Positions 9,541 to 35,469 of a stretch of 64,000 nucleotides of DNA are shown here, one piece after another (within the stretch, counting starts at the first letter, position 1; every line of letters begins with the position of its first letter). The DNA comes from a virus (taxonomy: Duplodnaviria > Caudoviricetes): IMG/VR virus record IMGVR_UViG_3300002835_000001, positions 233,652-297,651 of that record, one strand, 5' to 3'. The notes beneath the pieces were generated by a model that saw only the letters and a list, made by a program, of their open reading frames with translations, was not told where the DNA came from and made no database searches. The position numbers were made by a program, and so were the translations under genes.

Positions 9541-9572
9541 TTTGTTTTTTAGAATGAAATGTGTTATGTTTG
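9541..9572 (+). promoter_or_regulatory. Bacteroidota-type sigma promoter for the Clp ATPase
   Basis: TTTG (9541-9544), 20 nt, then TATGTTTG (9565-9572), fitting TTTG/TAnnTTTG. Confidence 0.6.
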
Positions 9573-9595
9573 TAGAAACTAAACGTAAAAATAGT

Positions 9596-12039: not shown

Positions 12040-12468
12040 ATGGATACAAATACAGAAAAACAAGGTGATTTAATACTTCTTAGAGGTGTTCCGGGTTCGG
12101 GTAAAACAACATTCGCTAATGTTATATTACAACAACCAAATAACAACCCACAAGAAATATTGTCTGCGGATGATTTTTTTGAGGGTGAAAATGGTGAATA
12201 TAATTTTGACCCAACAAAATTAAAAGAAGCTCACAACTATTGTCAATTTAGGTGTTCCGAAAGAATGAGACAACAAAAGGTGAGAATTGTGGTTGCAAAT
12301 ACATTTACACAAGAATGGGAAATGGATGAATATTTTAAAATGGCCGAAAGGTACAATTATAGAGTTCATACAATAATTGTAGAGAATAGACATGGTAATG
12401 AAAATATTCACGGAGTTCCAAAAGATAAACTTCAACAAATGAAGAATAGGTTTGAAATTAAATTATAG
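12040..12468 (+). CDS. P-loop kinase (polynucleotide kinase/AAA_33-like)
   Basis: LLRGVPGSGKTT, ILSADDFF, AHNYCQ, VVANTFT and NIHGVP. Confidence 0.8.
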   Translation: MDTNTEKQGDLILLRGVPGSGKTTFANVILQQPNNNPQEILSADDFFEGENGEYNFDPTKLKEAHNYCQFRCSERMRQQKVRIVVANTFTQEWEMDEYFKMAERYNYRVHTIIVENRHGNENIHGVPKDKLQQMKNRFEIKL

Positions 12469-12535
12469 ATGAGTCAATTTATTGAATCTTTTACTAAGTC
12501 AATAAACCCACCACAAAAAACACCAATCAAAAATT

Positions 12536-13741
12536 GTGCTAACTACATTAGAAAAATATTACGAAAATGGTTTGTTACACAAACAAACCCACCCAAATCT
12601 TGACTTAACTATTTGGAATTATTCCCCAAAAGTTCAGTACGAAAGATTATGGGATGAGATTACTTTGCAATGTCGTGGATTGGTAACCAACTCAAAAGGT
12701 GATATTGTTGCAAGACCATTTAAGAAATTTTTTAACTACGAGGAACATAAACCAGAAGATATCCCTAATGAAGATTATGTTGTCTATGAAAAAATGGATG
12801 GTTCGTTAGGTATTCTCTTTTATTACAAATATGAATTAAGTGAAGAGAGAAGATATAATATATGGTTTAATAACAATTATGAAACAGGTATGGAAAGGTT
12901 CTTTGACCCTAACAATTTACCTGATTACGATAATCCATATTATGACCCAACACCAAAAACAAAAGGTGAATGGATATTAGCAACTCGAGGTTCGTTTACA
13001 TCACCACAAGCAATTAAAGGAAAAGAAATACTTGACAGACACGATATTAGTGCGTGGAGAAAAGACAACACATATTTGTTTGAGATTATTTATCCTGAAA
13101 ATAGAATTGTGGTTGATTATAAAGGAGAAGAAAAATTAGTTGTCCTTGGAGCTATTCATACTGAAACTGGTGAAGAAATACCCGATAGTAGTTTGTTTTG
13201 GACACAGGACTCGGGTTTTGAAGTTGTGATGACATATAAAACTTGGGGTGAAACATACGACTTATTAAAAGAAGAAATATCTAAAGATAAAGAAGGTTAC
13301 GTAATAAAATTCAAGAATGGTTTCCGAATGAAAATAAAAGGAGATGAATATGTTAGACTTCACAAAATTCTAACTAACATATCTAATCGTGACATATGGG
13401 AATATCTAAAAGATAATAAACCATTTGATGAGTTACTTGAAAAGGTTCCAGATGAATTTAATGATTGGGTTAAAACCACAATCAGAGATTTAAAATACGC
13501 ATGTTATCAATTAAGAGAACGAGCGGGTAAATTACATGATGGTTTTAGATATGGGAAATTTGGTGACAGAGACCCTGAACCATCTAAAAAAGAATTTGCT
13601 GAATTTGTAAATAAACAACAAAAAGTTTTACATGCAATTATGTTCGCAATGTGGAATGGAAATAATCAAAAAGTTGACGACATAATTTGGAAAATAGTTA
13701 AACCGGAATATTCAAAACCATTTAAGAAAGATGAAAACTGA
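12536..13741 (+). CDS. T4 Rnl1-like RNA ligase
   Basis: Motif I YEKMDGSLG, then ATRGSF, LFEII, EGYV and RMKIKG. N-terminal LQCRGLV and PFKKFFNY. Confidence 0.88.
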   Translation: MLTTLEKYYENGLLHKQTHPNLDLTIWNYSPKVQYERLWDEITLQCRGLVTNSKGDIVARPFKKFFNYEEHKPEDIPNEDYVVYEKMDGSLGILFYYKYELSEERRYNIWFNNNYETGMERFFDPNNLPDYDNPYYDPTPKTKGEWILATRGSFTSPQAIKGKEILDRHDISAWRKDNTYLFEIIYPENRIVVDYKGEEKLVVLGAIHTETGEEIPDSSLFWTQDSGFEVVMTYKTWGETYDLLKEEISKDKEGYVIKFKNGFRMKIKGDEYVRLHKILTNISNRDIWEYLKDNKPFDELLEKVPDEFNDWVKTTIRDLKYACYQLRERAGKLHDGFRYGKFGDRDPEPSKKEFAEFVNKQQKVLHAIMFAMWNGNNQKVDDIIWKIVKPEYSKPFKKDEN

Positions 13742-14216
13742 GAAAAAAAGATTATACTTAGACGATGTTAGAACACCAATTGGAACTGATTGGGTTATTG
13801 TAAGAAATTATGAACATTTTGTTTCTACCATTAGGCTATATGGATTAGAAAATTTTGATGTTATTTCGTTAGACCATGATTTAGGTGATGAGTCTATGGT
13901 TGAATACTATACAAATGTAAAAAATAATTATGTGTTAAATTATGACAATATAGTTGGTGAGAAAACGGGATATGATTGTTGTAAGTTTTTAGTGGCGGAA
14001 AGTATGAGTAAAAAAATACCTTTACCCCAAATTTATGTTCACTCCGCTAATCCAATTGGTAGTGCTAATATGATGGGTTATATTAATAATTATTTAATGA
14101 ATTGTAGTTTACCTCAAACCTGTATTAGAGTTAAAATTGAACACACAATTGATACACCAATGGTACTCTCTCCCGAAGCTAGAAAAGCAAAATGGGATAG
14201 AAGTAACAAAAAATAA
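13731..14216 (+). CDS. Cyclic-phosphate-processing receiver-like domain protein
   Basis: LYLDDVRTP, ISLDHDLG, TGYDCCKFL and HSANPIG. It overlaps the RNA ligase stop. Confidence 0.75.
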   Translation: MKTEKKRLYLDDVRTPIGTDWVIVRNYEHFVSTIRLYGLENFDVISLDHDLGDESMVEYYTNVKNNYVLNYDNIVGEKTGYDCCKFLVAESMSKKIPLPQIYVHSANPIGSANMMGYINNYLMNCSLPQTCIRVKIEHTIDTPMVLSPEARKAKWDRSNKK

Positions 14217-26693: not shown

Positions 26694-26768
26694 AGGGTAA
26701 TGGACTAATGGCTAAGTCACTTGCTTTGGGAGCAAGGCATCATGGAGGTTCGAGTCCTCTTTACCCTA
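26694..26768 (+). tRNA. tRNA-Pro(TGG)
   Basis: Acceptor AGGGTAA/TTACCCT, anticodon arm CTTGC-TT TGG GA-GCAAG, T-loop TTCGAGT. Confidence 0.92.
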
Positions 26769-26773
26769 CAAAC

Positions 26774-26845
26774 GCTGATTTAGCTCAGAGGCAGAGCACG
26801 AAGCTGTTAACTTCGGGGTCCGGATATCGTAATTCTGAATCAGCG
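26774..26845 (+). tRNA. tRNA-Asn(GTT) with an atypical T-loop
   Basis: GCTGATT/AATCAGC, CGAAG-CT GTT AA-CTTCG, T-loop ATCGTAA. Confidence 0.85.
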
Positions 26846-26850
26846 CAAAC

Positions 26851-26922
26851 ATCCGTGTAGTTCAATCGGTAGAACGTCGGTCTCCAAAACCGAAAATGAA
26901 GGTTCGAGTCCTTACATGGGTG
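26851..26922 (+). tRNA. tRNA-Trp(CCA)
   Basis: ATCCGTG/CATGGGT, TCGGT-CT CCA AA-ACCGA, T-loop TTCGAGT. Confidence 0.9.
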
Positions 26923-26929
26923 CAATAAT

Positions 26930-27009
26930 ACCCGAGTGGTGGAATGGTATACACAGCGGTCTTAGAAACCGTGTCGAAAGGCGTGTCGGTTCGAGTCCGA
27001 CCTTGGGTA
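26930..27009 (+). tRNA. tRNA-Leu(TAG)
   Basis: ACCCGAG/CTTGGGT, GCGGT-CT TAG AA-ACCGT, long variable arm. Confidence 0.92.
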
Positions 27010-27014
27010 CATAT

Positions 27015-27085
27015 TGTCCTTTGGTATAACGGTAGTACAAATGTTTTTGGAGCATCTAGTTGAGGTTCGAATCCTTGAGGGACAA
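27015..27085 (+). tRNA. tRNA-Gln(TTG)
   Basis: TGTCCTT/AGGGACA, loop TT TTG GA, T-loop TTCGAAT. Confidence 0.88.
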
Positions 27086-27087
27086 CT

Positions 27088-27160
27088 GTGTTTATAGTGT
27101 TAATGGTTAGCACGTCAGTTTGTGGTACTGATAGTATGGGTTCAAATCCCATTAAACACC
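27088..27160 (+). tRNA. tRNA-His(GTG)
   Basis: GTGTTTA/TAAACAC, TCAGT-TT GTG GT-ACTGA, C73. Position -1 is T, not G. Confidence 0.9.
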
Positions 27161-27222
27161 CTTTGGTTATTAGTGTTCCAAATCAAACAAAAAAATGGAC
27201 TTTTGGAACATTAATAATATAT

Positions 27223-27297
27223 TGCGGGATGTGTAGAAAATGGTTATCTCGTCGGTCTCATAAGCCGAAGTTCTGGGTTCAAGTCCCAGTCCCGCAA
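27223..27297 (+). tRNA. tRNA-Met(CAT), initiator-like sequence
   Basis: TGCGGGA/TCCCGCA, TCGGT-CT CAT AA-GCCGA, T-loop TTCAAGT. Confidence 0.85.
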
Positions 27298-27433
27298 CTA
27301 CAGAAGCAAAGTATTTTAAGTAAAATTTTGCAAAGTAAAAAAAAAGTTTTACATTCGTACCATAATTAAATGGGGTGAGATGTATTACCTATAGTTCCCA
27401 TAAATGGGGTCATAAATTATTAATTAATTAAGT

Positions 27434-27916
27434 ATGAAAAAAAGATTATTATTTATCGTGTTGTTTATCATAGTAACAACATCAACAATTAAAACAGAAG
27501 GAAAAACAATTAAATTAAACAATAACCAAATACCAAAAATAAGTTATGTAAATTTATATAATACTATTTTATCGATGGGTATTCTATATCCAGATATTGT
27601 ATTTGCCCAAGCGGTGTTAGAATCTGGAAGTTTTAAATCAAATTTAGCAATATTAAATAATAATATTTTTGGTATGAGACACCCAAAAATCCGTGAAACA
27701 ACCGCAATAGGTGAAGGAAAGAGTGGATATGCAAAATACAAAACGTGGGTACAAAGTGTTGAGGATTACCAACATTGGCAGGATTTTTTTCTAAAAGATA
27801 AGGAAATTTCAAGACAAGAATATCTTAATCTATTAGGAAGAATATACGCAACTGATAAAAATTATATATTAAGATTAAATCGTAAAATTAAAGAATATAA
27901 ACACATATTAGGTTAA
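27434..27916 (+). CDS. GH73/FlgJ-like glucosaminidase with an N-terminal signal/TM
   Basis: FAQAVLESG, NNIFGM, YAKYKTW and YATDKNY. Confidence 0.85.
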   Translation: MKKRLLFIVLFIIVTTSTIKTEGKTIKLNNNQIPKISYVNLYNTILSMGILYPDIVFAQAVLESGSFKSNLAILNNNIFGMRHPKIRETTAIGEGKSGYAKYKTWVQSVEDYQHWQDFFLKDKEISRQEYLNLLGRIYATDKNYILRLNRKIKEYKHILG

Positions 27917-28067
27917 AAATAAATTTGACAATTATTTTTTAATTTAAAGTATTGTTCATATATTTGTTAAACAATGGTTGATTGGGATTTAACGGGGCTA
28001 GCGAATAGCGAGAAACGCCAATTATAAAAACAGATGTCCACACCCCCATCTTCTGTTTTCCATAGTA

Positions 28068-28140
28068 GCCCGAATAGCTCAGTTGGTAGAGCAGCTGATT
28101 TGTAATCAGCAGGTCGTCAGTTCGAGTCTGACTTTGGGCT
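28068..28140 (+). tRNA. tRNA-Thr(TGT)
   Basis: GCCCGAA/TTTGGGC, GCTGA-TT TGT AA-TCAGC. Confidence 0.93.
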
Positions 28141-28331
28141 CAACAGGTGACGACGGTGGTGGAACCCCACTGTCTATAAATCTCAACACCCGCCTTGATT
28201 CGCGGTATTATAGCGGTGAGAGTAGAGTTATTACAAGTCGGGAGTAATTAACCCAATGACGAAAGTGTAACCACAGATATAGAAATATATTTGTTATGAT
28301 GTACGAAAGGGTACGAAAAACCTGTTATTTT

Positions 28332-28404
28332 GGGATTGAGGTCAAACGGTTAAGATGTCGCCCTGTCACGGCGCACGGAGCGGGTTCAACTCCCGTCAGT
28401 CCCG
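28332..28404 (+). tRNA. tRNA-Asp(GTC)
   Basis: GGGATTG/CAGTCCC, loop CT GTC AC, G73. Confidence 0.9.
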
Positions 28405-28611
28405 CAATGAGTAAGAAGTACTCAGTAAGTTTGGTAACGTTCTTTCAAGATGTTATGGTTGTCTCCTACCACGGCCTTAAGAGGGGGTCTCGGAATATGG
28501 GGGTAACAATCCCACCGAGTATGTTTGACTTTTTAAGCGGTAAGACGCGTTGGGTTTTTCAATAGGAAAAACTGTGAATATCTACTCACTGGGACTTCAG
28601 GTGGGACAATT

Positions 28612-28697
28612 GGAAGGATGGCAGAGTTGGTCTATCGCGTCGGTCTTGAAAACCGAAGTACTGAAAGGTACCGTGGGTTCGAATCCTACTCCTTCCG
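28612..28697 (+). tRNA. tRNA-Ser(TGA)
   Basis: GGAAGGA/TCCTTCC, TCGGT-CT TGA AA-ACCGA, long variable arm, G73. Confidence 0.93.
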
Positions 28698-28702
28698 CAT
28701 TT

Positions 28703-28774
28703 GCTCGGTTCGACTAGTGGTTAGGTCGCGTCCCTTTCACGGACGTAGCACGGGTTCGAATCCCGTACCGAGTA
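28703..28774 (+). tRNA. tRNA-Glu(TTC)
   Basis: GCTCGGT/ACCGAGT, CGTCC-CT TTC AC-GGACG. Confidence 0.93.
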
Positions 28775-28791
28775 CTGAATATAATAAAAAC

Positions 28792-29433
28792 ATGGAGACA
28801 AAGATTATCAACGGAGATTTTAGAGATTGTGTGGTACCTGATGGTTTAGTGATAACTGACCCTCCATACAACCAAGAATATTCTTATAACGAATATAAGG
28901 ATAAACTTACTGAAGAAGAATATATTGAACTACTATCTAAGATACCAACTCCATGTGTAATCATTCATTATCCTGAAGAAACAATTAATTTGTTACCAAA
29001 AGCAATTAACGCAAAATGTGAACAAGTGGTTTGTTGGGTTTATAATTCTAACACGGGAAAACAAAGTCGATTAATTTCTTGGTGGGGATGTAAACCTGAT
29101 TTTAAAAAGGTTAGGCAAGAATATAAAAATCTAAAAGACAAAAGAATTCAGAAAAGAATTGCTGAGGGTAAAACCGGAGCTAAACTTTATGATTGGTGGG
29201 AAATCAATCAAGTAAAAAATGTTAGCAAGGAAAAAACCGAACACCCTTGTCAAATACCCGAAGAATTAATTAGACGAATTATTCTTACAACGGCACAATC
29301 AAATCAAACAATCATTGATGTTTTCGGTGGTAGTGGTACAACATCAAAAGTCGCTAAAGAATTAGGATTTAATTCGATTAGTTACGAAATTGATGAGAAG
29401 TATTGTGAAATTATTAAGAATAGAATTACATAA
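28792..29433 (+). CDS. Amino (N4-C/N6-A) DNA methyltransferase, beta-class order
   Basis: ITDPPY near the N-terminus, HPCQIP, and IIDVFGGSGTT SAM motif. True start is METKIING at 28792; the longer ORF in the track runs through tRNAs. Confidence 0.88.
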   Translation: METKIINGDFRDCVVPDGLVITDPPYNQEYSYNEYKDKLTEEEYIELLSKIPTPCVIIHYPEETINLLPKAINAKCEQVVCWVYNSNTGKQSRLISWWGCKPDFKKVRQEYKNLKDKRIQKRIAEGKTGAKLYDWWEINQVKNVSKEKTEHPCQIPEELIRRIILTTAQSNQTIIDVFGGSGTTSKVAKELGFNSISYEIDEKYCEIIKNRIT

Positions 29434-29515
29434 AAACTTTTACTTTTTTATATTAAGATATTGATTTACAATATTTTATTTTGTATATTTGTTATATTAC
29501 AAATATTTATAATAT

Positions 29516-29818
29516 ATGATAGATAAAATCACATTATCGTTAATGTTATTTTTTAACACATTAACGTCATCTATCGACCCAAGTCTTTCTGATGAAAGAA
29601 AGTCTGTCAATCAAATAAAAAAACAGATTAAATCTCTTGAAAGAAAAATTGAATGGGTTGAAGTAACAGATGAGAATTACGCTAGCAGGGCCGTCAAAAC
29701 CAAAGGAATCACGGACGAGATTACCAAATTAAATGGTGAAATTGTAAAGATTGAGAAGGTTGCAAATTTAAAAGATAAATGGGCTAAGGAAGATTCCTTA
29801 ACCAAATCGAAAAAATGA
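29516..29818 (+). CDS. Secreted coiled-coil protein
   Basis: Hydrophobic N-terminus and a heptad-rich body. TATATTTG at 29484-29491. Confidence 0.65.
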   Translation: MIDKITLSLMLFFNTLTSSIDPSLSDERKSVNQIKKQIKSLERKIEWVEVTDENYASRAVKTKGITDEITKLNGEIVKIEKVANLKDKWAKEDSLTKSKK

Positions 29819-30264
29819 AAAAAATTTTTTTAGTGCTAACGTTACTTTTGGGAGTGGAAGTCGTAGCAAATGGACAAGAGTGGTTTATAACTGCCACTCG
29901 AAAAGGCGGTCCATCAGATGGTTATATAACTGGTGGTTTTATGAAAAAAGGTTGGGGGTTTTATGCTGGTCTTCCTTATGGTGAAATAGGGGGTCCGAAT
30001 GGTGGAATTTCAATTCCTCCTGGTGTTAATACCAAAACGGGAAACGTATCTGATAACATGAAGTTCGGTGTTCTTAGACAATTAAAAGAAGATAAAGCAA
30101 TTGTTGGATTTGGATTACAACCAACACTTGGTGGTAATAAACCAAATTTTCTTATAATGTACAATCCACTTAGGCCAAGTACCGTTATAAATTTATGGAC
30201 AATTGGTAATTTAGTCGGTAGTGATTTCACATTAGGACTTGGTTTATCGTATAAAGTAAAATAA
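29815..30264 (+). CDS. Small outer-membrane beta-barrel-like protein
   Basis: Signal peptide, Gly/aromatic strands and a terminal LGLGLSYKVK. Confidence 0.65.
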   Translation: MKKIFLVLTLLLGVEVVANGQEWFITATRKGGPSDGYITGGFMKKGWGFYAGLPYGEIGGPNGGISIPPGVNTKTGNVSDNMKFGVLRQLKEDKAIVGFGLQPTLGGNKPNFLIMYNPLRPSTVINLWTIGNLVGSDFTLGLGLSYKVK

Positions 30265-30281
30265 ACATTTTTAGTTAAGTT

Positions 30282-30323
30282 AAAACCCTGAACAAACTAA
30301 AAAAAATTGTTCAGGGTTTTTTT
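30282..30323 (+). terminator. Intrinsic terminator
   Basis: AAAACCCTGAACAA ... TTGTTCAGGGTTTT followed by a U-run. Confidence 0.75.
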
Positions 30324-30383
30324 ATACCATTTTTTTTTATTATATTTGAATTATAGTTCTTTGATTTATTGGAAAAACAAAAT

Positions 30384-30468
30384 GCCTGAGTGATGAAATG
30401 GTATACATGACAGACTTAAAATCTGTTGAGCAGAAACGCTCGTGCGGGTTCAAGTCCCGCCTCAGGTA
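30384..30468 (+). tRNA. tRNA-Leu(TAA)
   Basis: GCCTGAG/CTCAGGT, ACAGA-CT TAA AA-TCTGT, long variable arm. Confidence 0.93.
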
Positions 30469-30620
30469 CAAATGTAATGATTCAGAAATGAGTGACGGAA
30501 CGGACGCTACGTATGAAATGGAAACTTTTGAAGCACGTACAAAGGTGCTGATTTGAAACAAACCGTACAGACATTACATTTAAACACTATCGTTCTTTGA
30601 AAATAAAGGAGAAAATTAAT

Positions 30621-30869
30621 ATGGATATATTATCATTTATTTTAGGAATGTCAATAGTTGTGGTTATCGCAGTTGCGGTAGTTGCGGTTATTGCCTTTGT
30701 TAAGGTTAATAAAACTAACAAAGAAATTGAAACGATTCATACCATTATGGGTAATGAATCCGAAAGGTCGCATAGAGAGCGTGAAGAAGCAATTCAAAAT
30801 GTTTATAGAACATTAGATTCACGACTTGATAAACTTGAGAGTAAAATTACAACAAGCCGTAAGGCATAA
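30621..30869 (+). CDS. Single-TM coiled-coil protein inside the tRNA cluster
   Basis: MDILSFILGMSIVVVIAVAVVAVIAF followed by a coiled coil. AAGGAG upstream. Bracketed by an inverted repeat. Confidence 0.7.
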   Translation: MDILSFILGMSIVVVIAVAVVAVIAFVKVNKTNKEIETIHTIMGNESERSHREREEAIQNVYRTLDSRLDKLESKITTSRKA

Positions 30870-30909
30870 CGATTAAATAAAAACTTTCAAAGACGATAGT
30901 GTTATTTTT

Positions 30910-30983
30910 GGTTCCGTAGCTCAGTTGGATAGAGCAACATCCTTCTAAGATGTGGGTCTTTGGTTCGAATCCAAACGGGATCA
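30910..30983 (+). tRNA. tRNA-Arg(TCT)
   Basis: GGTTCCG/CGGGATC, ACATC-CT TCT AA-GATGT. Confidence 0.93.
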
Positions 30984-31036
30984 CGTAATCATTGAAAAAA
31001 ACGATATCAGATTTTATCGTTAGATTAAACGATAAT

Positions 31037-31110
31037 GGACTTGTAGCTCACTAGGTTAGAGCGGCACACTCATAATGTGAAGGTAATAGGTTCGATTCCT
31101 ATCTGGTCCA
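31037..31110 (+). tRNA. tRNA(CAT), probably Ile2 (lysidine-type) rather than Met
   Basis: GGACTTG/CTGGTCC, loop CT CAT AA, A73. The Ile2 versus Met identity is inferred from the GGxC acceptor start. Confidence 0.75.
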
Positions 31111-31237
31111 CTATTTAAAGTATGGGATTCCGATGGAAGTCCGCAAGAAAAATAGATGTTTTTCATCCATCAAAAAATCATCATAGAGGCCGCTAAATCG
31201 AGTTAGTGAAAATCTACATTCTCTGTGATGATCATAT

Positions 31238-31388
31238 TGTAGTGTGACGAAATTGGCAAACGTGCCCTCCTGTCTCGGGGGCGTGGATAAAGAAATAGAT
31301 TGATAATATTAGGGGGTAGACCACCAGCTTGCAAGCGTCATGTTATCAATCGAATCTCCACTTGGTGGTTCGAATCCATCCACTACAG
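31238..31388 (+). ncRNA. 151-nt tRNA-like RNA with an 82-nt structured variable arm and a non-canonical anticodon loop
   Basis: Acceptor TGTAGTG/CACTACA plus G, class-II-type D arm, CCCTC-CTGTCTC-GGGGG, T arm GGTGG-TTCGAAT-CCATC, insertion at 31282-31363. Confidence 0.8.
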
Positions 31389-31445
31389 CTTTTTATAAAT
31401 AAATTTTGTTTTGTCAATTTTATTTCTTATATTTTATTATAAACA

Positions 31446-31678
31446 TGGAAAATATGAAATGTATTAAATTAATTAAAGCAAGTAAAGGTCACGAAATTGG
31501 TCAAATTTTAAGAGTAAACGATGATGAGGCAGATTTAAGAGTAAAAGGTGGTTATTGGTCATTTGCACCAAAGACCGAATATAAACTTTATAAGAATCCT
31601 GACTACAAAACAAAGAAGACATCTGAGAAAGTATCTTCTAAAAAAACCTTGAAAAAAAATAAAGTAGAAAATAATTAA
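31446..31678 (+). CDS. Small basic hypothetical protein
   Basis: MENMKCIKLIK...ILRVNDDEADLRVKGGYWSF with a Lys-rich tail. Confidence 0.65.
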
Positions 31679-31685
31679 AAAATAT

Positions 31686-31765
31686 TTTGTTTTTTCAAAA
31701 AGTATTCGTATATTTGTAAAAGAAATCAGATAGATGGTTTCTAAAAACAAGAAATAGTTCTTTGA
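31686..31765 (+). promoter_or_regulatory. Bacteroidota promoter plus boxA-like element for the large ncRNA
   Basis: TTTG (31686), 19 nt, TATATTTG (31709-31716), then GTTCTTTGA at 31757-31765. Confidence 0.65.
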
Positions 31766-31776
31766 ATTAAAAATAT

Positions 31777-32571
31777 TGGCCGCCTATGGTCAACAAAATA
31801 AACCACGAAAGTGGGATAAAGTGATTTGGTTTGGTTAAATCAAGTTGCGGTTTCAGCAATGGAACTTGAGTAGGCAAACAGAATATCGTTGAACCTTAAT
31901 TACCGAGGGTAACACTGTAGGGAAAGTGGTTTAATGACTAAGCAATCCGAGTTGTTTGGTTGAGGTGGGAACACCAATAAGAATAATCTGTAGAGTTATT
32001 ACAAGAAGTAGGACGTCCAATCTTACAATTGTGTGACTCAATATGATGGGAATCTTAAAACCGAAAGGTATGGTGAAGTACGAGTGGTGTCGTTATCATC
32101 CTTAATTGAACTCTACCAAGGGTTTAGTTTTGAAGGGGTCCAAAAATATGGTAGCAGGGATGTTACAGAGAGTAGTTTAGTATCGAGTTGTTCAAAAGAT
32201 AACTTGGCTGGCAGACGAGCCACTACTTTCCAAATTCGGAACCAATAACAATTGTTAATTACGGTTTAACAACTCAAACAACAAGGAAAAGTGCTCGTCA
32301 GTCGTTGGAGACAGGTGACTACACAGTCGAGAGAGGTTCTCGGCCACAAAGGGTCCAAACCCAATGTGATTTTTAAGAAAGTTCTCTAAGTTCGCAAGAC
32401 TTAGTCGGGGTGGCAACCTCGAAGAGTAATGAGTATTAAAAGAGTATCTAACGACTTAAGGATTGGTTAATCTAATTGACCGTCGCTGATTGGTACTACT
32501 CAAAAGGTAGTGGATAAGAGAAGAAAAGATAATGTCTCTAAAGTCAATCGTTAAATGGTGTAATCTCAGCC
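31777..32571 (+). ncRNA. Large ornate structured RNA of about 795 nt, GOLLD-like
   Basis: No credible ORF, GC-richer than the flanks, own promoter. GNRA hairpins CCAC-GAAA-GTGG (31803), ACC-GAAA-GGT (32060) and CTAAGTTC-GCAA-GACTTAG (32386). Long-range helix GGAAAGTGGT (31921) with ACTACTTTCC (32222). Size and position next to tRNAs fit GOLLD. The family is not verified. Confidence 0.6.
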
Positions 32572-32707
32572 TTTTCTTTTTTTAATTTTGTGTAAAATTA
32601 AATGGTGGAATCTAACGATATTAAAAACCGTTCGGCCCTAAAAAATTAGTCATAAGAAATTATGGCTTTTTTTGTGCTTTTAATAAAATTTTACTTATAT
32701 TTGTTTT

Positions 32708-33460
32708 ATGAGAATAGTTTGTATATCAGACACACATAGTCTTCAGGATTTAATGTCTCACCCAATCCCCAAGGGTGATATATTGATACATTCAGGGGAT
32801 ATTTCAAATAAAGGAGGTGAAAAGGATGTCACCAATTTTGTACATTGGTTTCAAAACATTGAGGGTTTTGATTCTAAGGTATTCATTGCCGGTAATCACG
32901 ATTTTTGTTTTGAAAAAGTTAATCAACCTCATCACAAAGGTGATTATGATTGGTTACATAATTTAATGTCGCCTGAGAATCTATCACAATCTAATGTTGA
33001 GTATTTGGAGGATAATTCATTTGTAATAGAGTCACCTGAATTTTCAAAACTAATTAAAATTTACGGAAGTCCTTGGCAACCAAATTTTTACGATTGGGCA
33101 TTTAATTTACCGAGAATGGGTGATGAACTTAAATCTAAATGGGATATGATTCCTGATGATGTTAATATTTTAATCACTCACGGACCCCCAAATGAGATTA
33201 GAGATTTTGTAAGTAACTGGAGACAAGGTGATATGAATGTTGGTTGTGAATTGTTAAGACACCAATTAGATAACAGAATTAAACCAGTACTACACGTATT
33301 TGGACATATCCACGGAGCATATGGTGCGGCACTAATTAAGGATACTCTTTATGTAAACGCATCAACTTGTACTGAAAGATACGAACCAACAAATAAACCA
33401 ATCATTGTTGACTTAACTGAAGTTGATGGTAAATTAATTGCAACATATGTCGAAGAATAA
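32708..33460 (+). CDS. Calcineurin-like metallophosphoesterase
   Basis: CISDTH, HSGD, IAGNHD, ITHGPP and VFGHIH. Confidence 0.92.
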   Translation: MRIVCISDTHSLQDLMSHPIPKGDILIHSGDISNKGGEKDVTNFVHWFQNIEGFDSKVFIAGNHDFCFEKVNQPHHKGDYDWLHNLMSPENLSQSNVEYLEDNSFVIESPEFSKLIKIYGSPWQPNFYDWAFNLPRMGDELKSKWDMIPDDVNILITHGPPNEIRDFVSNWRQGDMNVGCELLRHQLDNRIKPVLHVFGHIHGAYGAALIKDTLYVNASTCTERYEPTNKPIIVDLTEVDGKLIATYVEE

Positions 33461-34130
33461 CCAACCAATTAGTGTTGTAATATCAACACGAAAAATTGAT
33501 GATACGTATTTAAAACACGTAGAAAAAATGTTTTCACACCCTAAGACTCAAATATTAATTTATGAGAATGATGGTGTCGATTCTTTACCCAAAATTTACA
33601 ATTTAGGATTACAAGAATCCGAACATGACATTGTTGTGTTTATGCATGATGATCTTATTTTGGAAACAACAAACATTACACCGAAAGTTGTTAGATTATT
33701 TAATGAGAATCCTGAATATGGTATAATTGGATTGGCTGGTACCGATAATCTAATAAGTGGGATGTGGTGGCAAGACAAAGAGTCGATGTATGGAGTTGTT
33801 GGTCACGAACACCAAGGTAAACGACATGTAAATCACTATTCAAAGAAATCATTTGGCGATAAACCAAAGGAGGTTGCTATTGTTGATGGTTTATTCATGA
33901 TGATACATAAAAAAAGAATTAAACACACATTCAACGAAGAGTTTAGTGGGTTTCATTTTTACGATTTACCGATATGTGTGGAAAACCACTTAGATGGTGT
34001 TAAAGTTGGTGTGACAACCAAAATTATGGTAACACATAAATCGATTGGTATGGTAAATAAACAATGGGAAAAAAATAAGTTGTTTTTTGAGGCATTATAT
34101 GAAAAACACTTCCCTTTAAGGGTTAACTGA
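33447..34130 (+). CDS. GT-A (GT2-like) glycosyltransferase
   Basis: IYNLGL, VVFMHDDL, GIIGLAG, VDGLFM and FHFYDL. Confidence 0.82.
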   Translation: MSKNNQPISVVISTRKIDDTYLKHVEKMFSHPKTQILIYENDGVDSLPKIYNLGLQESEHDIVVFMHDDLILETTNITPKVVRLFNENPEYGIIGLAGTDNLISGMWWQDKESMYGVVGHEHQGKRHVNHYSKKSFGDKPKEVAIVDGLFMMIHKKRIKHTFNEEFSGFHFYDLPICVENHLDGVKVGVTTKIMVTHKSIGMVNKQWEKNKLFFEALYEKHFPLRVN

Positions 34131-34172
34131 TTTTAGTACAATAACGGATATTTATATATAAAACAAACAATT

Positions 34173-34475
34173 ATGATGACAGTATTTTTAATTTTAATAG
34201 TTCTAGTAATAGCTGGAGCTGTAACATTTTTCCTAATGAAAAAAGGTAAAATCGAAGACAAAAACGGTAATAACATTCCTGATGTGGTTGAAGAAAAAAT
34301 TGAGGATGTTAAAGAATTGGTTAATGTAGTTAAAGAAAGAGCAACAAGAGTCGTTGAAGAAACTAAAGATGTTGTTGAAGCGGCTAAAAAAGTTGTTAAA
34401 CAATCTAAAGACGTAGTAGATGCAGCTAAGGGCAATGGTGCTCGTAAAGGAAGAAAACCATCTACTAAAAAGTAA
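34173..34475 (+). CDS. Single-TM protein with an amphipathic helical repeat tail
   Basis: TM helix, DKNGNNIPDVVEE, and VVEETKDVVEAAK repeats. TATTTATA at 34149-34156. Confidence 0.7.
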   Translation: MMTVFLILIVLVIAGAVTFFLMKKGKIEDKNGNNIPDVVEEKIEDVKELVNVVKERATRVVEETKDVVEAAKKVVKQSKDVVDAAKGNGARKGRKPSTKK

Positions 34476-34509
34476 ATTATTATACACATAGAAATTTAAT
34501 GGGTTAAAA

Positions 34510-34555
34510 TTTGTTTTTTAACCCTTTTTTATCTATCTTTGTAAAAGTTCTTTAA
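34510..34555 (+). promoter_or_regulatory. Bacteroidota promoter plus boxA-like element for tmRNA
   Basis: TTTG (34510), 20 nt, TATCTTTG (34534-34541), then GTTCTTTAA at 34547-34555. Confidence 0.65.
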
Positions 34556-34560
34556 AATAT

Positions 34561-34966
34561 GGGGATGCTTGGAATTGATTTCAGGTATCAGGGGTAAATG
34601 GCACGTAGTCAGACTTCATCTATGACTTAAATCTATGGTGGAAAATTTTAGACGGCAACGTTTATAAAAACATGGAAATTGCAGGTTTACTTGCAACTTC
34701 TAACGTAGAAGTAGCCTAAGGCAAAACTACAATCGGGTCGATGTACATATAACCTAGGAACAGAAGTACTCAAGGTGTAATACCACCCAAAGATGTATTA
34801 GGAGTCTCGTTCAGGGGTCTACTCCAACACAAGTGAACCCGACACAGTTATTGGTAACGATGTCAAAATAGGAACCAATTATTTGTCTGTTGTGAACTAA
34901 CAGAATAAACGTGTAGTCATTTATTGTTGAACCGGGAAGACCGGAGTTCGAGTCTCCGCATCTCCA
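34561..34966 (+). ncRNA. ssrA: tmRNA
   Basis: Acceptor GGGGATG/CATCTCC with G3-U70 and A73. 3' T arm CGGAG-TTCGAGT-CTCCG. Internal tag ORF at 34654-34719. Adjacent to smpB. Confidence 0.92.
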
Positions 34967-34969
34967 CTC

Positions 34970-35000
34970 AAAGGGGTTTCATTAATTGGAACCCCTTTTT
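34970..35000 (+). terminator. Intrinsic terminator after tmRNA
   Basis: AAAGGGGTTTC ... GAACCCCTTTTTT. Confidence 0.7.
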
Positions 35001-35031
35001 TATTTTAAAAAATTATACATATATTTGTAAT

Positions 35032-35469
35032 ATGAAAAATGTCATTGATAATCGAAAAGCTTATTTTAATTATAATATCGAGGATAAGTACACCGCAGGT
35101 ATACAATTAATTGGTACTGAAATAAAGTCCATTCGTGAAGGTAAATTAAATTTTAACGATTCATTTTGTTTATTCATCAATGGTGAATTATTTGTCCGAG
35201 GGATTTACATATCAGATTATTCTTTTGGTGTAAAACATGAAAATGTTAGAGATAGGAAATTACTACTAACCAAAAAGGAATTAAAGAAAATACAGGAATC
35301 AATTAAAGAAAAGGGATATACGATTGTACCATTAAAAGGGTACTTTACGGATACGAATTATTTTAAAATAGAGATTGGTATTGGTAAGGGTAAAAAGTCC
35401 TACGATAAGAGAGAAACAATAAAAAAAAGGGACTCTGAACGTGAGGTTAGAAGATTGGTGACCACATAA
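35032..35469 (+). CDS. smpB: SsrA-binding protein
   Basis: NRKAYFNY, AGIQLIGTEIKSIR, RDRKLLLTKKE, GYTIVPL and GKGKKSYDKRETIKKRD. True start is at 35032. Confidence 0.95.
   Translation: MKNVIDNRKAYFNYNIEDKYTAGIQLIGTEIKSIREGKLNFNDSFCLFINGELFVRGIYISDYSFGVKHENVRDRKLLLTKKELKKIQESIKEKGYTIVPLKGYFTDTNYFKIEIGIGKGKKSYDKRETIKKRDSEREVRRLVTT

What the first reader, a model, noticed from the sequence alone, without database searches (positions are those of the whole stretch)
31238..31388. tRNA-like RNA with an 82-nt multi-helix variable arm and a non-decoding anticodon loop
Seen: perfect 7-bp acceptor stem, class-II D arm and canonical T arm. The variable arm (31282-31363) folds as GTGGA/TCCAC enclosing a 10-bp helix GATTGATAAT/GTTATCAATC, capped by small hairpins including palindromic GCTTGCAAGC. 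The anticodon loop CTGTCTC has U37, whereas position 37 is normally a purine, and a normal tRNA-Asp(GTC) already exists at 28332. Known: T4 encodes tRNA-cluster RNAs of unknown function (rnaC/rnaD). Inference: this is a tRNA-processed scaffold or decoy, for example bait for anticodon nucleases or uncharged-tRNA sensors, or a partner of the neighbouring ~795-nt RNA.
Basis: partly seen in the sequence, partly recalled or inferred. Interest (0 to 1): 0.85.

Follow-up and report, generated by a model that had tools for sequence, protein, structure and literature searches.

The report
Phage tRNA-Asp look-alike with giant arm
This is a real, conserved and apparently undescribed family of phage RNAs shaped like an aspartate tRNA but carrying an 80-base folded extra arm and an anticodon loop unsuited to normal decoding, so it probably uses the cell's tRNA machinery for something other than ordinary translation.

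Summary
Window 31238-31388 (+) is a 151-nt class-II-type cloverleaf with an 82-nt branched variable arm. ARAGORN and Rfam's tRNA model both miss it.

I found 42 copies (40 distinct) in freshwater phage and metagenome contigs. Each of five large phage records holds exactly one copy.
- 99.2% of modelled pairs form, and 29 of 45 pairs show compensatory changes. These occur in all four tRNA arms and in arm helices P1, P2 and P4.
- Invariant: G34, U35, C36, C38, G73 and G2-C71 (the aspartate identity set), U8, A14, A15-U48 and an encoded C74.
- Position 33 varies (U, C, A or G). Position 37 is always a pyrimidine. Pair 1-72 is U-A or A-U, never G-C. 17 of 40 copies have a bulged U in the T stem.
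- A canonical tRNA-Asp (A37, G1-C72) sits beside it in the window and in four large phage records.
- The arm tip is a perfect 10-nt palindrome in 38 of 42 copies, which suggests a dimer.
- GOLLD is often nearby but is absent from one complete genome that has the element.

Best reading (about 0.5): AspRS recognises it, tRNA enzymes mature it, and it does not serve as an ordinary decoder. The decoy reading is not excluded.

First-stage readers of this scan had already noted the same element in other genomes.

The parts
31238..31388 (+). Whole tRNA-shaped RNA: 151 nt, positions 1-73 in tRNA numbering
   Evidence: Sequence. CM R1 scores it 172.6 bits. 42 homologues are aligned in A3 and the structure counts are.
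31238..31244 (+). Acceptor stem 5' strand. It pairs with 31381-31387. U1-A72 and G2-C71.
   Evidence: 6 of 7 pairs covary. Pair 1-72 is U-A in 37 and A-U in 3. G2-C71 is invariant in 40 of 40.
31245..31264 (+). U8, G9, 3-bp D stem (31247-31249 with 31261-31263), D loop with A14, A15, G18, G19, and position 26
   Evidence: U8, G9, A14 and A15 are invariant and D-stem pairs covary. 8 of 40 relatives carry an extra hairpin of about 27 nt in the D loop.
31265..31281 (+). Anticodon arm. 5-bp stem and 7-nt loop CUGUCUC at 31270-31276 (G34 at 31272, U37 at 31275, C38 at 31276).
   Evidence: 4 of 5 stem pairs covary. G34, U35, C36 and C38 are invariant. Position 33 is U in 34, C in 4, G in 1 and A in 1. 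Position 37 is U in 35 and C in 5.
31282..31363 (+). Variable region, 82 nt. P1: 31283-31287 with 31357-31361. Bulge: 31288-31291. GA/UC pairs: 31292-31293 with 31355-31356. Internal loop: AAUA at 31294-31297 opposite GAA at 31352-31354. P2: 31298-31308 with 31341-31351. The arm ends in a three-way junction.
   Evidence: P1 has 3 of 5 and P2 has 7 of 11 pairs with compensatory changes. The loop sequences are invariant.
31313..31325 (+). P3 hairpin, GGGG-UAGA-CC(A)CC, nearly invariant. It contains an invariant GAC, which is complementary to the GUC loop.
   Evidence: No covariation is available, so the fold is only predicted.
31327..31336 (+). P4, the palindrome GCUUGCAAGC, at the tip of the arm
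   Evidence: All 3 stem pairs covary. Loop positions 1 and 4 change together (UGCA to GGCC). 38 of 42 copies are a perfect 10-nt palindrome in four versions. The predicted homodimer duplex is 16.1 kcal/mol better than two hairpins.
31364..31380 (+). T arm, with loop UUCGAAU
   Evidence: 4 of 5 pairs covary. 17 of 40 relatives have a bulged U in the 5' strand.
31388..31389 (+). Discriminator G73 and encoded C74. No CCA is encoded in this copy.
   Evidence: G73 is invariant in 40 of 40. C74 is present in 40 of 40, and a full CCA is encoded in 5 of 40.
28332..28404 (+). Comparator: the phage's canonical tRNA-Asp(GUC), with loop CUGUCAC, G1-C72 and G73
   Evidence: Rfam tRNA model, 50.1 bits. Sequence. 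The same gene is found in G002 and G003.

Best explanation
A phage-encoded, single-copy RNA of the tRNA kind that I could not find described.

Steps of the proposed mechanism:
1. It is transcribed with, or beside, the phage tRNA array.
2. It is cut out and given its CCA end by the normal tRNA enzymes. (Inferred.)
3. It folds into a normal L-shaped class-II tRNA core.
4. The host aspartyl-tRNA synthetase recognises it, because every major aspartate identity nucleotide is invariant. (Inferred; charging has not been shown.)
5. It is kept out of, or works poorly in, ordinary decoding. (Inferred.) The reasons are that position 33 is free to vary, position 37 is never a purine, the first pair is U-A rather than the G-C of bacterial tRNA-Asp, many copies have a bulge in the T stem, and an arm of about 80 nt projects from the core.
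6. The sequence-conserved arm is the functional handle. It binds a partner still unknown and, through its palindromic tip, probably joins two molecules tip to tip. (Inferred.)

The most likely use is a dedicated aspartyl carrier, or an AspRS-binding RNA, that is separate from the translational tRNA-Asp pool.

Shown: the structure, its conservation, the pattern of invariant and variable positions, coexistence with a canonical tRNA-Asp, and presence in RNA libraries.
For: - Structure and family: 42 copies, 99.2% of pairs formed, 29 of 45 pairs compensatory, controls far lower.
- Invariant G34, U35, C36, C38, G73 and G2-C71 while the neighbouring stem positions vary. The identity review PMC9976931 lists G73, G34, U35, C36 and C38 as the five strong aspartate determinants and G2-C71 as a minor one.
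- tRNA core contacts are kept: U8-A14, A15-U48, G18 G19 and the T loop UUCGA.
- Features that argue against decoding: position 33 is U in 34, C in 4, G in 1 and A in 1; position 37 is U in 35 and C in 5, never a purine; a T-stem bulge occurs in 17 of 40.
- A canonical tRNA-Asp with A37 and G1-C72 is present as well in the window, G002, G003, G004 and G005.
- One copy in each of 5 phage records.
- C74 is encoded in 40 of 40 copies. Several copies lie 3-5 nt after a tRNA.
- RNA-library contigs cover the element, including the arm (X17 contig of depth 70.7 across 31305-31312; X20 bins at depth 36-47). Two further freshwater metatranscriptome runs hold 6-7 of its 10 sampled words.
- None of the phage records searched encodes an AspRS, so a host enzyme would have to act.
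Against: - Aminoacylation has not been tested in any way.
- Bacterial tRNA-Asp has G1-C72, which helps place the 3' end in E. coli AspRS. The element has U1-A72.
- From general knowledge of class II synthetase complexes, AspRS approaches tRNA from the variable-loop side, so an 80-nt arm might clash with it.
- G10, an E. coli determinant, is not conserved: A in 20, G in 18 and U in 2.
- G73 and G2-C71 also fit serine identity.
- U33 is still the majority, and a GC-rich GUC anticodon could tolerate U37, so weak decoding is not excluded.
- No partner protein was identified. The neighbouring genes differ between loci.
- RNA-library contigs cannot prove transcription, ends or charging.
Confidence: 0.5

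Rival explanations
1. Decoy or bait. The RNA displays a tRNA-Asp anticodon arm to a host factor that attacks or senses tRNA-Asp, such as an anticodon nuclease. The pyrimidine at 37 and the arm make it a non-productive, tight or uncleavable ligand, which protects the real tRNA-Asp.
For: - The loop differs from the phage's own tRNA-Asp only at position 37.
- GUC-Y-C is invariant.
- The phage carries an RNA repair set: AAA_33 kinase, Rnl1-type ligase and a cREC domain at 12040-14216. Rnl1 is also present in both near-complete relatives. Such sets are typical of phages facing anticodon nucleases.
- Some relatives carry a second hairpin with a GUCUC loop in the D loop.
Against: - A nuclease that reads only the anticodon loop would not explain the invariant G73 and G2-C71, about 75 Angstrom away.
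- No tRNA-Asp-specific defence nuclease is known for these hosts.
- The sequence-conserved arm has no role in this model.
- A literature search for the phrase 'tRNA decoy' together with 'phage' found nothing.
Confidence: 0.2
2. A working but unusual tRNA-Asp. It decodes GAY codons, for example as a nuclease- or modification-resistant backup, and the arm recruits a phage factor.
For: - The cloverleaf, the tRNA core contacts, the GUC anticodon and the Asp identity set are all complete.
- It is located in tRNA arrays.
- U33 is the majority state.
Against: - Position 33 is C, A or G in 6 of 40 distinct copies, and position 37 is never a purine.
- 17 of 40 copies have a T-stem bulge.
- The arm of about 80 nt, with about 20 bp of helix and a three-way junction, is far beyond any known decoding tRNA.
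- A canonical tRNA-Asp is encoded alongside it in 5 genomes.
Confidence: 0.12
3. tRNA scaffold for a cargo RNA. The tRNA body only provides processing and stability, and the arm is the active module, for example a partner of GOLLD or of a phage protein. Aspartate identity would be irrelevant.
For: - The arm loops are invariant in sequence.
- GOLLD lies 0.4-1.7 kb downstream in about 14 loci.
- Kretsch et al. note tRNAs in the GOLLD linker region and propose that the cages may hold tRNAs.
Against: - A mere scaffold would not hold G34, U35, C36, C38 and G73 invariant and Y37 pyrimidine-only.
- The complete genome G004 and loci L004, L013, L015, L017, L030 and L031 have the element but no GOLLD.
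Confidence: 0.1
4. Serine-accepting tRNA with an aspartate anticodon. SerRS would recognise the long arm, G73 and G2-C71, giving a Ser carrier or a missense tRNA.
For: [quoted passage not shown] G73 and G2-C71 are serine elements.
- The D arm is of the class II type.
Against: - SerRS ignores the anticodon, so the invariant GUC and C38 would be unexplained.
- G1-C72, conserved in bacterial tRNA-Ser, is absent.
- The arm's bulges and length differ from tRNA-Ser arms.
Confidence: 0.05
5. An intron-containing pre-tRNA. The 82-nt arm is spliced out to give a class I tRNA.
For: - One low-depth contig (4.5x) in one RNA run skips 31303-31342.
- The phage encodes an RNA ligase and a kinase.
Against: - The insert lies in the variable region, not the anticodon loop.
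- No intron family matches.
- The arm's loops are invariant and its helices covary, as in a functional RNA.
- RNA-library contigs contain the arm.
- The skipped 40 nt is not the whole arm, and the skip sits at the base of a strong hairpin, where reverse transcriptase or assembly artefacts arise.
- Splicing would still leave Y37 and a variable position 33.
Confidence: 0.03

Closest known systems
Canonical bacterial or phage tRNA-Asp(GUC)
   Same: 7/5 acceptor and T arms, GUC anticodon, C38, G73, G2-C71, T loop UUCGA, tRNA core contacts, an encoded C74 like the phage's other tRNAs, and a gene inside a tRNA array.
   Different: An 82-nt branched variable arm instead of 4-5 nt. A class-II (Leu-like) 3-bp D arm. 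A pyrimidine at 37. A variable position 33. U1-A72 instead of G1-C72. A T-stem bulge in many copies. Rfam's tRNA model and ARAGORN do not detect it.
T4 RNAC / RNAD (species 1 and 2 RNAs of the T4 tRNA cluster)
   Same: Stable phage RNAs of 119-139 nt at the distal end of a T4-type tRNA cluster. RNAC has a T arm and an acceptor-like stem. Their function is unknown. In L015 the element lies next to a T4 e-type lysozyme gene, as rnaC lies near e in T4.
   Different: There is no detectable homology. CM R1 gives rnaC 15 bits, on the T arm only. rnaC has no D arm plus anticodon arm plus variable arm layout, an imperfect acceptor stem and no G73.
Non-proteinogenic tRNA-Gly of staphylococci (dedicated to cell-wall synthesis)
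   Same: Concept only, from general knowledge. These are tRNAs charged by the normal synthetase but carrying sequence changes that keep them out of translation, so they serve as amino-acid donors for a non-ribosomal reaction.
   Different: Those are normal-sized class I tRNAs with no extra domain. No transferase partner is known here, and charging has not been shown.
tRNA-Asn / tRNA-Gln substrates of GatCAB
   Same: U1-A72 is the determinant that lets the amidotransferase act, and G1-C72 of tRNA-Asp blocks it. The element combines U1-A72 with aspartate identity. The Flectobacillus MAG that holds two contigs with the element encodes GatB.
   Different: The anticodon is GUC, not GUU. The phage tRNA-Asn genes mostly have G1-C72, so these hosts probably use AsnRS. 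The phage records encode no GatA or GatB.
Class II tRNAs (Leu, Ser, Tyr) and tRNA-Sec
   Same: A 3-bp D stem, the A15-U48 Levitt pair, and a helical variable arm that leaves the core between positions 44 and 48. The best ordinary-tRNA matches to the model are tRNA-Leu and tRNA-Ser.
   Different: Their arms are simple hairpins of about 10-25 nt without conserved sequence. Here the arm has about 20 bp, two internal loops and a three-way junction with invariant loops. G73 excludes leucine identity.
Bacterial YrlA Y RNAs and tmRNA (tRNA-like modules in larger RNAs)
   Same: A tRNA-like fold used outside ordinary decoding, and processing by tRNA enzymes.
   Different: In YrlA the 5' and 3' ends form the Ro-binding stem, not an acceptor stem. 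tmRNA lacks an anticodon arm and carries a tag reading frame. Neither Rfam model matches the element.

Membership tests
Elongator tRNA (Rfam RF00005 / ARAGORN definition) | Detected by the tRNA covariance model or by ARAGORN | tested here: not met
   No tRNA hit at 31238-31388 at the gathering threshold or at E up to 10. ARAGORN is silent there.
Elongator tRNA | Cloverleaf with 7-bp acceptor, 5-bp T stem, 5-bp anticodon stem and 7-nt loop, and the core contacts U8-A14, 15-48 and G18 G19 with the T loop | tested here: met
   All helices covary. U8, A14, A15, U48, G18, G19 and UUCGA are conserved.
Elongator tRNA | U33 universally conserved and a purine at position 37 | tested here: not met
   Position 33 is U in 34, C in 4, G in 1 and A in 1. 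Position 37 is U in 35 and C in 5, with no purine in 40 distinct sequences.
Bacterial tRNA-Asp | Identity set G73, G34, U35, C36, C38, plus G2-C71 | tested here: met
   All are invariant in 40 of 40. The set is as given in PMC9976931.
Bacterial tRNA-Asp | G1-C72 strictly conserved, and a class I body with a 4-5-nt variable loop | tested here: not met
   Pair 1-72 is U-A in 37 and A-U in 3. The variable region is 78-90 nt and the D arm is class II.
Bacterial tRNA-Asp | Aspartylated by AspRS and delivered by EF-Tu to GAY codons | not testable with these tools
   This needs aminoacylation, EF-Tu and ribosome assays.
tRNA with intron (group I or protein-spliced) | The insert lies in or next to the anticodon loop, has an intron fold or a bulge-helix-bulge, and is absent from the mature RNA | tested here: not met
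   The insert lies between positions 44 and 48. No intron family matches. The arm is present in RNA-library contigs. The mature ends were not determined.
T4 RNAC family | Sequence or structure homology to T4 rnaC | tested here: not met
   CM R1 gives 15.1 bits, limited to the T arm region. The predicted folds differ. Only the genomic position is similar.
GOLLD-associated tRNA (tRNA in the GOLLD linker region) | Always linked to a GOLLD RNA | tested here: not met
   GOLLD is present in about 14 loci. It is absent from the complete genome G004 and from six loci with flanks of 3.5-12 kb.
GatCAB substrate (Asp-tRNA to be amidated) | U1-A72 present, and the G1-C72 antideterminant absent | tested here: met
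   U1-A72 in 37 of 40 and never G-C. The rule is as given in PMC9976931. Whether amidation happens cannot be tested here.

The most novel reading that the evidence does not exclude
Two of these RNAs join tip to tip through the palindromic P4 to form a twin tRNA. The dimeric host AspRS charges it with aspartate. Because of U1-A72, GatCAB may then convert the aspartate to asparagine. The RNA then serves as a ribosome-excluded amino-acid carrier or platform for a phage-directed non-ribosomal reaction. This would be a first example of a virus-encoded, dimeric, non-proteinogenic tRNA.
Probability: 0.15. Interest if true: 0.92.

Novelty: new variant of a known kind. Interest (0 to 1): 0.74.

Why it matters
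Phage tRNA genes are usually explained by codon usage or by escape from host tRNA nucleases. This case is different. The RNA keeps every nucleotide that aspartyl-tRNA synthetase reads, loses the features the ribosome needs, and carries a conserved 80-nt domain.

If it is charged, it would be a virus-encoded tRNA dedicated to something other than translation. That would add to recent evidence that phages use charged tRNAs for non-ribosomal chemistry, such as Mom with Gly-tRNA (PMC13219725).

If it is a decoy, it would be a new kind of counter-defence.

In either case:
- It offers a handle on the old question of what the extra stable RNAs in T4-type tRNA clusters do.
- It shows that standard tRNA finders miss a whole class of tRNA-shaped genes.
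- Its palindromic tip adds a candidate to the newly recognised set of self-assembling phage RNAs.

Tried and rejected
- **BLAST against phage GenBank records:** no homologue of the element; only tRNA fragments matched.
- **Own genome:** no whole genome is held for this window.
- **Pattern GAATCTCCAC..GGTTCGA in viral contigs:** it added only chance hits inside coding regions (L035-L045; no CM match at E up to 1e-8).
- **Genome-contig scan:** the L033 hit is a chance match.
- **My metagenome pattern was too loose.** The family census is therefore incomplete.
- **K-turn reading of the P1/P2 internal loops:** the sequences do not fit the G-A/A-G rule (by eye).
- **Pairing of the arm's GACCACC with the T-stem 5' strand:** rejected, because the T stem varies while GACCACC does not.
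- **Queuine transglycosylase substrate or decoy:** weakened, because U33, which that enzyme needs, is not conserved.
- **Contact between the P3 loop GAC and the GUC loop:** it is possible by complementarity, but both are invariant. Position 37 does not covary with the base 5' of GAC, so nothing supports it.
- **Phage-encoded AspRS, GatB or GatA:** not found in 4-5 large phage records.
- **Neighbouring genes differ between loci:** metallophosphoesterase and glycosyltransferase in the window, lysozyme in L015. No conserved protein partner emerged.
- **Read laying:**
  - The lack of cover over the coding stretch 32715-34163 cannot be used to argue that the libraries are free of DNA.
  - The single 4.5x joint 31302 to 31343 is too weak to count as splicing.
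  - RNA runs holding fewer than 5 words of the element are not evidence.
- **Complex prediction, protein folding and structure searches were not used.** The object is an RNA.
Full report
**1. What is in the sequence**

Window 31238-31388 (+) reads as a complete cloverleaf.
- The acceptor 31238-31244 pairs perfectly with 31381-31387.
- U8 and G9 follow.
- The D stem has 3 bp (31247-31249 with 31261-31263). Its loop carries A14, A15, G18 and G19.
- The anticodon stem has 5 bp (31265-31269 with 31277-31281). Its loop is CUGUCUC (31270-31276), that is G34 U35 C36 U37 C38.
- The variable region is 82 nt (31282-31363).
- The T arm (31364-31380) has loop UUCGAAU.
- G73 is at 31388 and an encoded C74 at 31389.

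- P1, GUGGA/UCCAC.
- A bulge, then two GA/UC pairs.
- An internal loop, AAUA opposite GAA.
- An 11-bp helix, P2.
- A three-way junction with two small hairpins. P3 is GGGG-UAGA-CC(A)CC and P4 is the palindrome GCUUGCAAGC.

ARAGORN does not report the element. Rfam's tRNA model does not match it either, even at E up to 10 on the isolated stretch, and no other Rfam family matches.

**2. Setting**

The window is part of a T4-type phage:
- T4-like portal and large terminase.
- An array of about 15 tRNA genes at 26694-31111 on the same strand.
- The 3' half of a GOLLD RNA at 32168-32572, at 316 bits.
- A tmRNA at 34561-34969, followed by a phage SmpB gene at 34924-35469.
- An RNA repair set at 12040-14216: AAA_33 kinase, Rnl1-type ligase and a cREC domain.

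No whole genome is held for the window. The phage GenBank collection has no close relative.

A canonical tRNA-Asp lies at 28332-28404. It has loop CUGUCAC, G1-C72 and G73. ARAGORN misses it.

**3. The family**

Exact and degenerate pattern scans of IMG/VR, one metagenome scan and one genome scan gave homologues. A covariance model (R1) built from 14 of them finds 42 copies, 40 of them distinct.
- The copies score 91-173 bits.
- Ordinary tRNAs in the same loci score 46 bits or less.

Whole-record searches find exactly one high-scoring copy in each of five phage records of 51-324 kb.

The contigs come from freshwater or lake samples, judging by the runs that hold the window. Two short contigs are binned with a Flectobacillus MAG, which hints at a Bacteroidota host.

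**4. Structure support**

On the 40 distinct sequences:
- 99.2% of cells form standard pairs.
- 29 of 45 pairs show changes on both sides.
- No shuffle out of 500 reaches any of the observed measures.
- Sliding the 3' partners by 1-3 columns drops pairing to 41-53% and the covariation score from 0.43 to about 0.06.

| Helix | Pairs with compensatory changes |
|---|---|
| Acceptor | 6 of 7 |
| D stem | 2 of 3 |
| Anticodon stem | 4 of 5 |
| T stem | 4 of 5 |
| P1 | 3 of 5 |
| P2 | 7 of 11 |
| P4 | 3 of 3 |

P3 and the two GA/UC pairs never vary, so they remain predictions. A mutual-information scan recovers the modelled pairs at the top. It adds only one further Watson-Crick-like pair, positions 1 and 4 of the P4 loop, which change together from UGCA to GGCC.

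**5. What is conserved and what is not**

Invariant in 40 of 40:
- U8, G9, A14, A15 and U48.
- G2-C71.
- G34, U35, C36 and C38.
- G73.
- Most single-stranded residues of the arm: AAGAAA.AG, GACCACC and GAAUCUC.

Variable or unusual:
- Position 33 is U in 34, C in 4, G in 1 and A in 1. The C33 state occurs in three different sequences.
- Position 37 is U in 35 and C in 5, never a purine.
- Pair 1-72 is U-A in 37 and A-U in 3, never G-C.
- Position 10 is A, G or U.
- 17 of 40 have a bulged U in the 5' strand of the T stem.
- 8 of 40 carry an extra hairpin of about 27 nt in the D loop. In several of these the hairpin loop again reads GUCUC.

C74 is encoded in all copies and a full CCA in 5 of 40. 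Several copies start 3-5 nt after a tRNA-Ser, the usual spacing in tRNA arrays.

**6. Reading the pattern**

The identity review PMC9976931 makes these points:
- Aspartate identity rests on five strong determinants conserved through evolution: G73, G34, U35, C36 and C38.
- G2-C71 is a minor determinant.
- G1-C72 is strictly conserved in bacterial tRNA-Asp.
- GatCAB amidates Asp-tRNA only when the first pair is U1-A72. G1-C72 acts as an antideterminant.

The element therefore keeps exactly the nucleotides AspRS reads, at both ends of the molecule, while the neighbouring stem positions drift.

It departs from decoding tRNAs at the two most conserved positions of the anticodon loop, 33 and 37. 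Many copies have a bulge in the T stem, and all carry a very large arm.

Selection against a purine at 37, rather than free variation there, suggests that efficient decoding or modification at position 37 would be harmful.

The simplest explanation is an RNA that AspRS binds, and probably charges, but that does not act as an ordinary decoder. The charging itself is inferred, not shown.

Points that weaken this reading:
- U1-A72.
- The lack of a conserved G10.
- The expected approach of class II AspRS from the variable-loop side (general knowledge).
- G73 and G2-C71 plus a long arm also fit serine identity. SerRS, however, would not explain the invariant anticodon.

**7. It is not the phage's only tRNA-Asp**

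A canonical tRNA-Asp (A37, G1-C72) is encoded as well in:
- the window;
- L003, L007, L024 and L147;
- the large records G002, G003, G004 and G005.

In the complete genome G004 the canonical gene lies in a 21-tRNA array. The element stands alone about 7 kb away, between an AT-rich leader and a terminator-like hairpin.

**8. Relation to GOLLD and tmRNA**

GOLLD follows the element within 0.4-1.7 kb in about 14 loci. tmRNA follows about 2 kb further on.

However, six loci with 3.5-12 kb of downstream flank have no GOLLD. The complete genome G004 has neither GOLLD nor a tmRNA above the cut-off. The element is therefore an independent gene that often shares an RNA island with them.

**9. Expression**

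Contigs from four lake metatranscriptome runs, laid on 30300-35100, gave these results:
- Very high depth over GOLLD, in the thousands.
- High depth over tmRNA.
- Contigs over the element. In X17 one contig of depth 70.7 spans arm positions 31305-31312 and carries the sequence variant seen in relatives. In X20 the bins over 31105-31426 have depth 36-47.

Two further freshwater metatranscriptome runs hold 6 and 7 of the element's 10 sampled 31-mers.

These are contigs. They show presence, with the arm, in RNA libraries. They do not show ends, strand or charging.

One 4.5x contig skips 40 nt inside the arm. It sits at the base of the strong P2 hairpin and is best treated as an artefact or a rare variant.

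**10. The arm**

Its helices covary but its loops are fixed, which points to a specific partner.

P4 is a perfect 10-nt palindrome in 38 of 42 copies, in four versions: GCUUGCAAGC, GCAUGCAUGC, GCCGGCCGGC and UCCGGCCGGA. As a hairpin it is worth only -1.5 kcal/mol. An intermolecular 10-bp duplex is predicted to be 16.1 kcal/mol better than two hairpins.

Together with the coupled change in the loop, from UGCA to GGCC, this makes a tip-to-tip homodimer a reasonable inference.

Two caveats apply:
- The loop change may be only one or two evolutionary events.
- Perfect-palindrome hairpins also occur in the D loops of some copies and of another odd tRNA in L012. An insertion mechanism that creates palindromes is therefore an alternative explanation.

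**11. Comparison with known things**

T4 RNAC (139 nt) and RNAD (119 nt) are stable RNAs at the end of the T4 tRNA cluster. Their roles are still unknown.
- RNAC has a T arm and an imperfect acceptor stem.
- Model R1 gives it only 15 bits, so homology is not shown.
- The genomic position is similar. In L015 the element is followed by a T4 e-type lysozyme gene, and in T4 rnaC lies next to the e region.

The nearest functional concepts are:
- non-proteinogenic tRNAs that are charged but avoid translation (general knowledge);
- aminoacyl-tRNA-dependent, non-ribosomal reactions in phages, such as Mom using Gly-tRNA (PMC13219725).

No paper describing this element was found.

**12. Other checks**
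- The large phage records encode no AspRS, GatB or GatA, so host enzymes would have to act.
- The Flectobacillus MAG encodes GatB.
- The phage tRNA-Asn genes mostly have G1-C72, so asparagine is probably made directly in these hosts. The GatCAB idea therefore stays speculative.
- Rnl1 is present in both near-complete relatives. This fits a phage lineage exposed to tRNA nucleases, so the decoy reading remains possible.

**13. Verdict**

- The specific links to GOLLD and to uncharged-tRNA sensors are not supported.
- The decoy idea is possible, but it explains less than recognition by AspRS does.
- Function remains unproven. The experiments listed would decide it quickly.

First-stage readers of this scan had noted look-alike elements in several other genomes. 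My homologue searches were made independently of those notes.

Noticed in passing
L017:716-818 (+): A second odd tRNA-like gene (103 nt) in the L004/L011/L017 phage group. Its D arm resembles the element's. Its anticodon arm is degenerate. Its variable arm of about 40 nt has a stem that resembles P2 of the element. It may be a paralogous family.
   Followed up: partly
L012:6677-6782 (-): A 106-nt tRNA-like gene with a perfect-palindrome hairpin (GGUGGCCACC) inserted in its D loop. Similar perfect palindromes (GCAAUUGC, GCGUACGC) sit in the D loops of some copies of the element. Either selection for dimers or an insertion mechanism could produce them.
   Followed up: partly
window 28332-28404 and 26774-26845: ARAGORN misses two tRNA genes that Rfam finds (50.1 and 47 bits). 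One of them is the canonical tRNA-Asp.
   Followed up: partly
window 31749-32553: The GOLLD RNA reaches contig depths in the thousands in four lake metatranscriptome runs. The roughly 780 nt upstream of the Rfam hit is conserved at the DNA level in 14 loci. That stretch holds the GOLLD 5' half and a small ORF-like segment at 31406-31678.
   Followed up: partly
window 34561-35469: A phage-encoded tmRNA immediately followed by a phage SmpB gene (PF01668, 179 bits). The tmRNA is well covered in RNA libraries.
   Followed up: partly
window 12040-14216: An RNA repair set: AAA_33 kinase, Rnl1-type RNA ligase (PF09511) and a cyclic-phosphate-processing cREC domain (PF20274). A metallophosphoesterase lies at 32708-33460, between GOLLD and tmRNA. 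Rnl1 is also present in the related complete phages G002 and G004.
   Followed up: partly
L167:2909-3047 (-), T4 rnaC: T4 RNAC folds with a T arm and an acceptor-like stem with two U-U mismatches. A hairpin just 5' of the T arm has a 6-nt loop, CGUCAA, which contains GUC. This may be chance, at about 6%.
   Followed up: no
L015:5874-6392 (-): In the G004/L015 phage group the element is a stand-alone gene directly upstream of a T4 e-type lysozyme gene. This mirrors the tRNA-rnaD-rnaC-e region of T4.
   Followed up: partly
window 9542-11614: A ClpB/ClpC-like double-AAA ATPase encoded by the phage, near the RNA repair genes.
   Followed up: no
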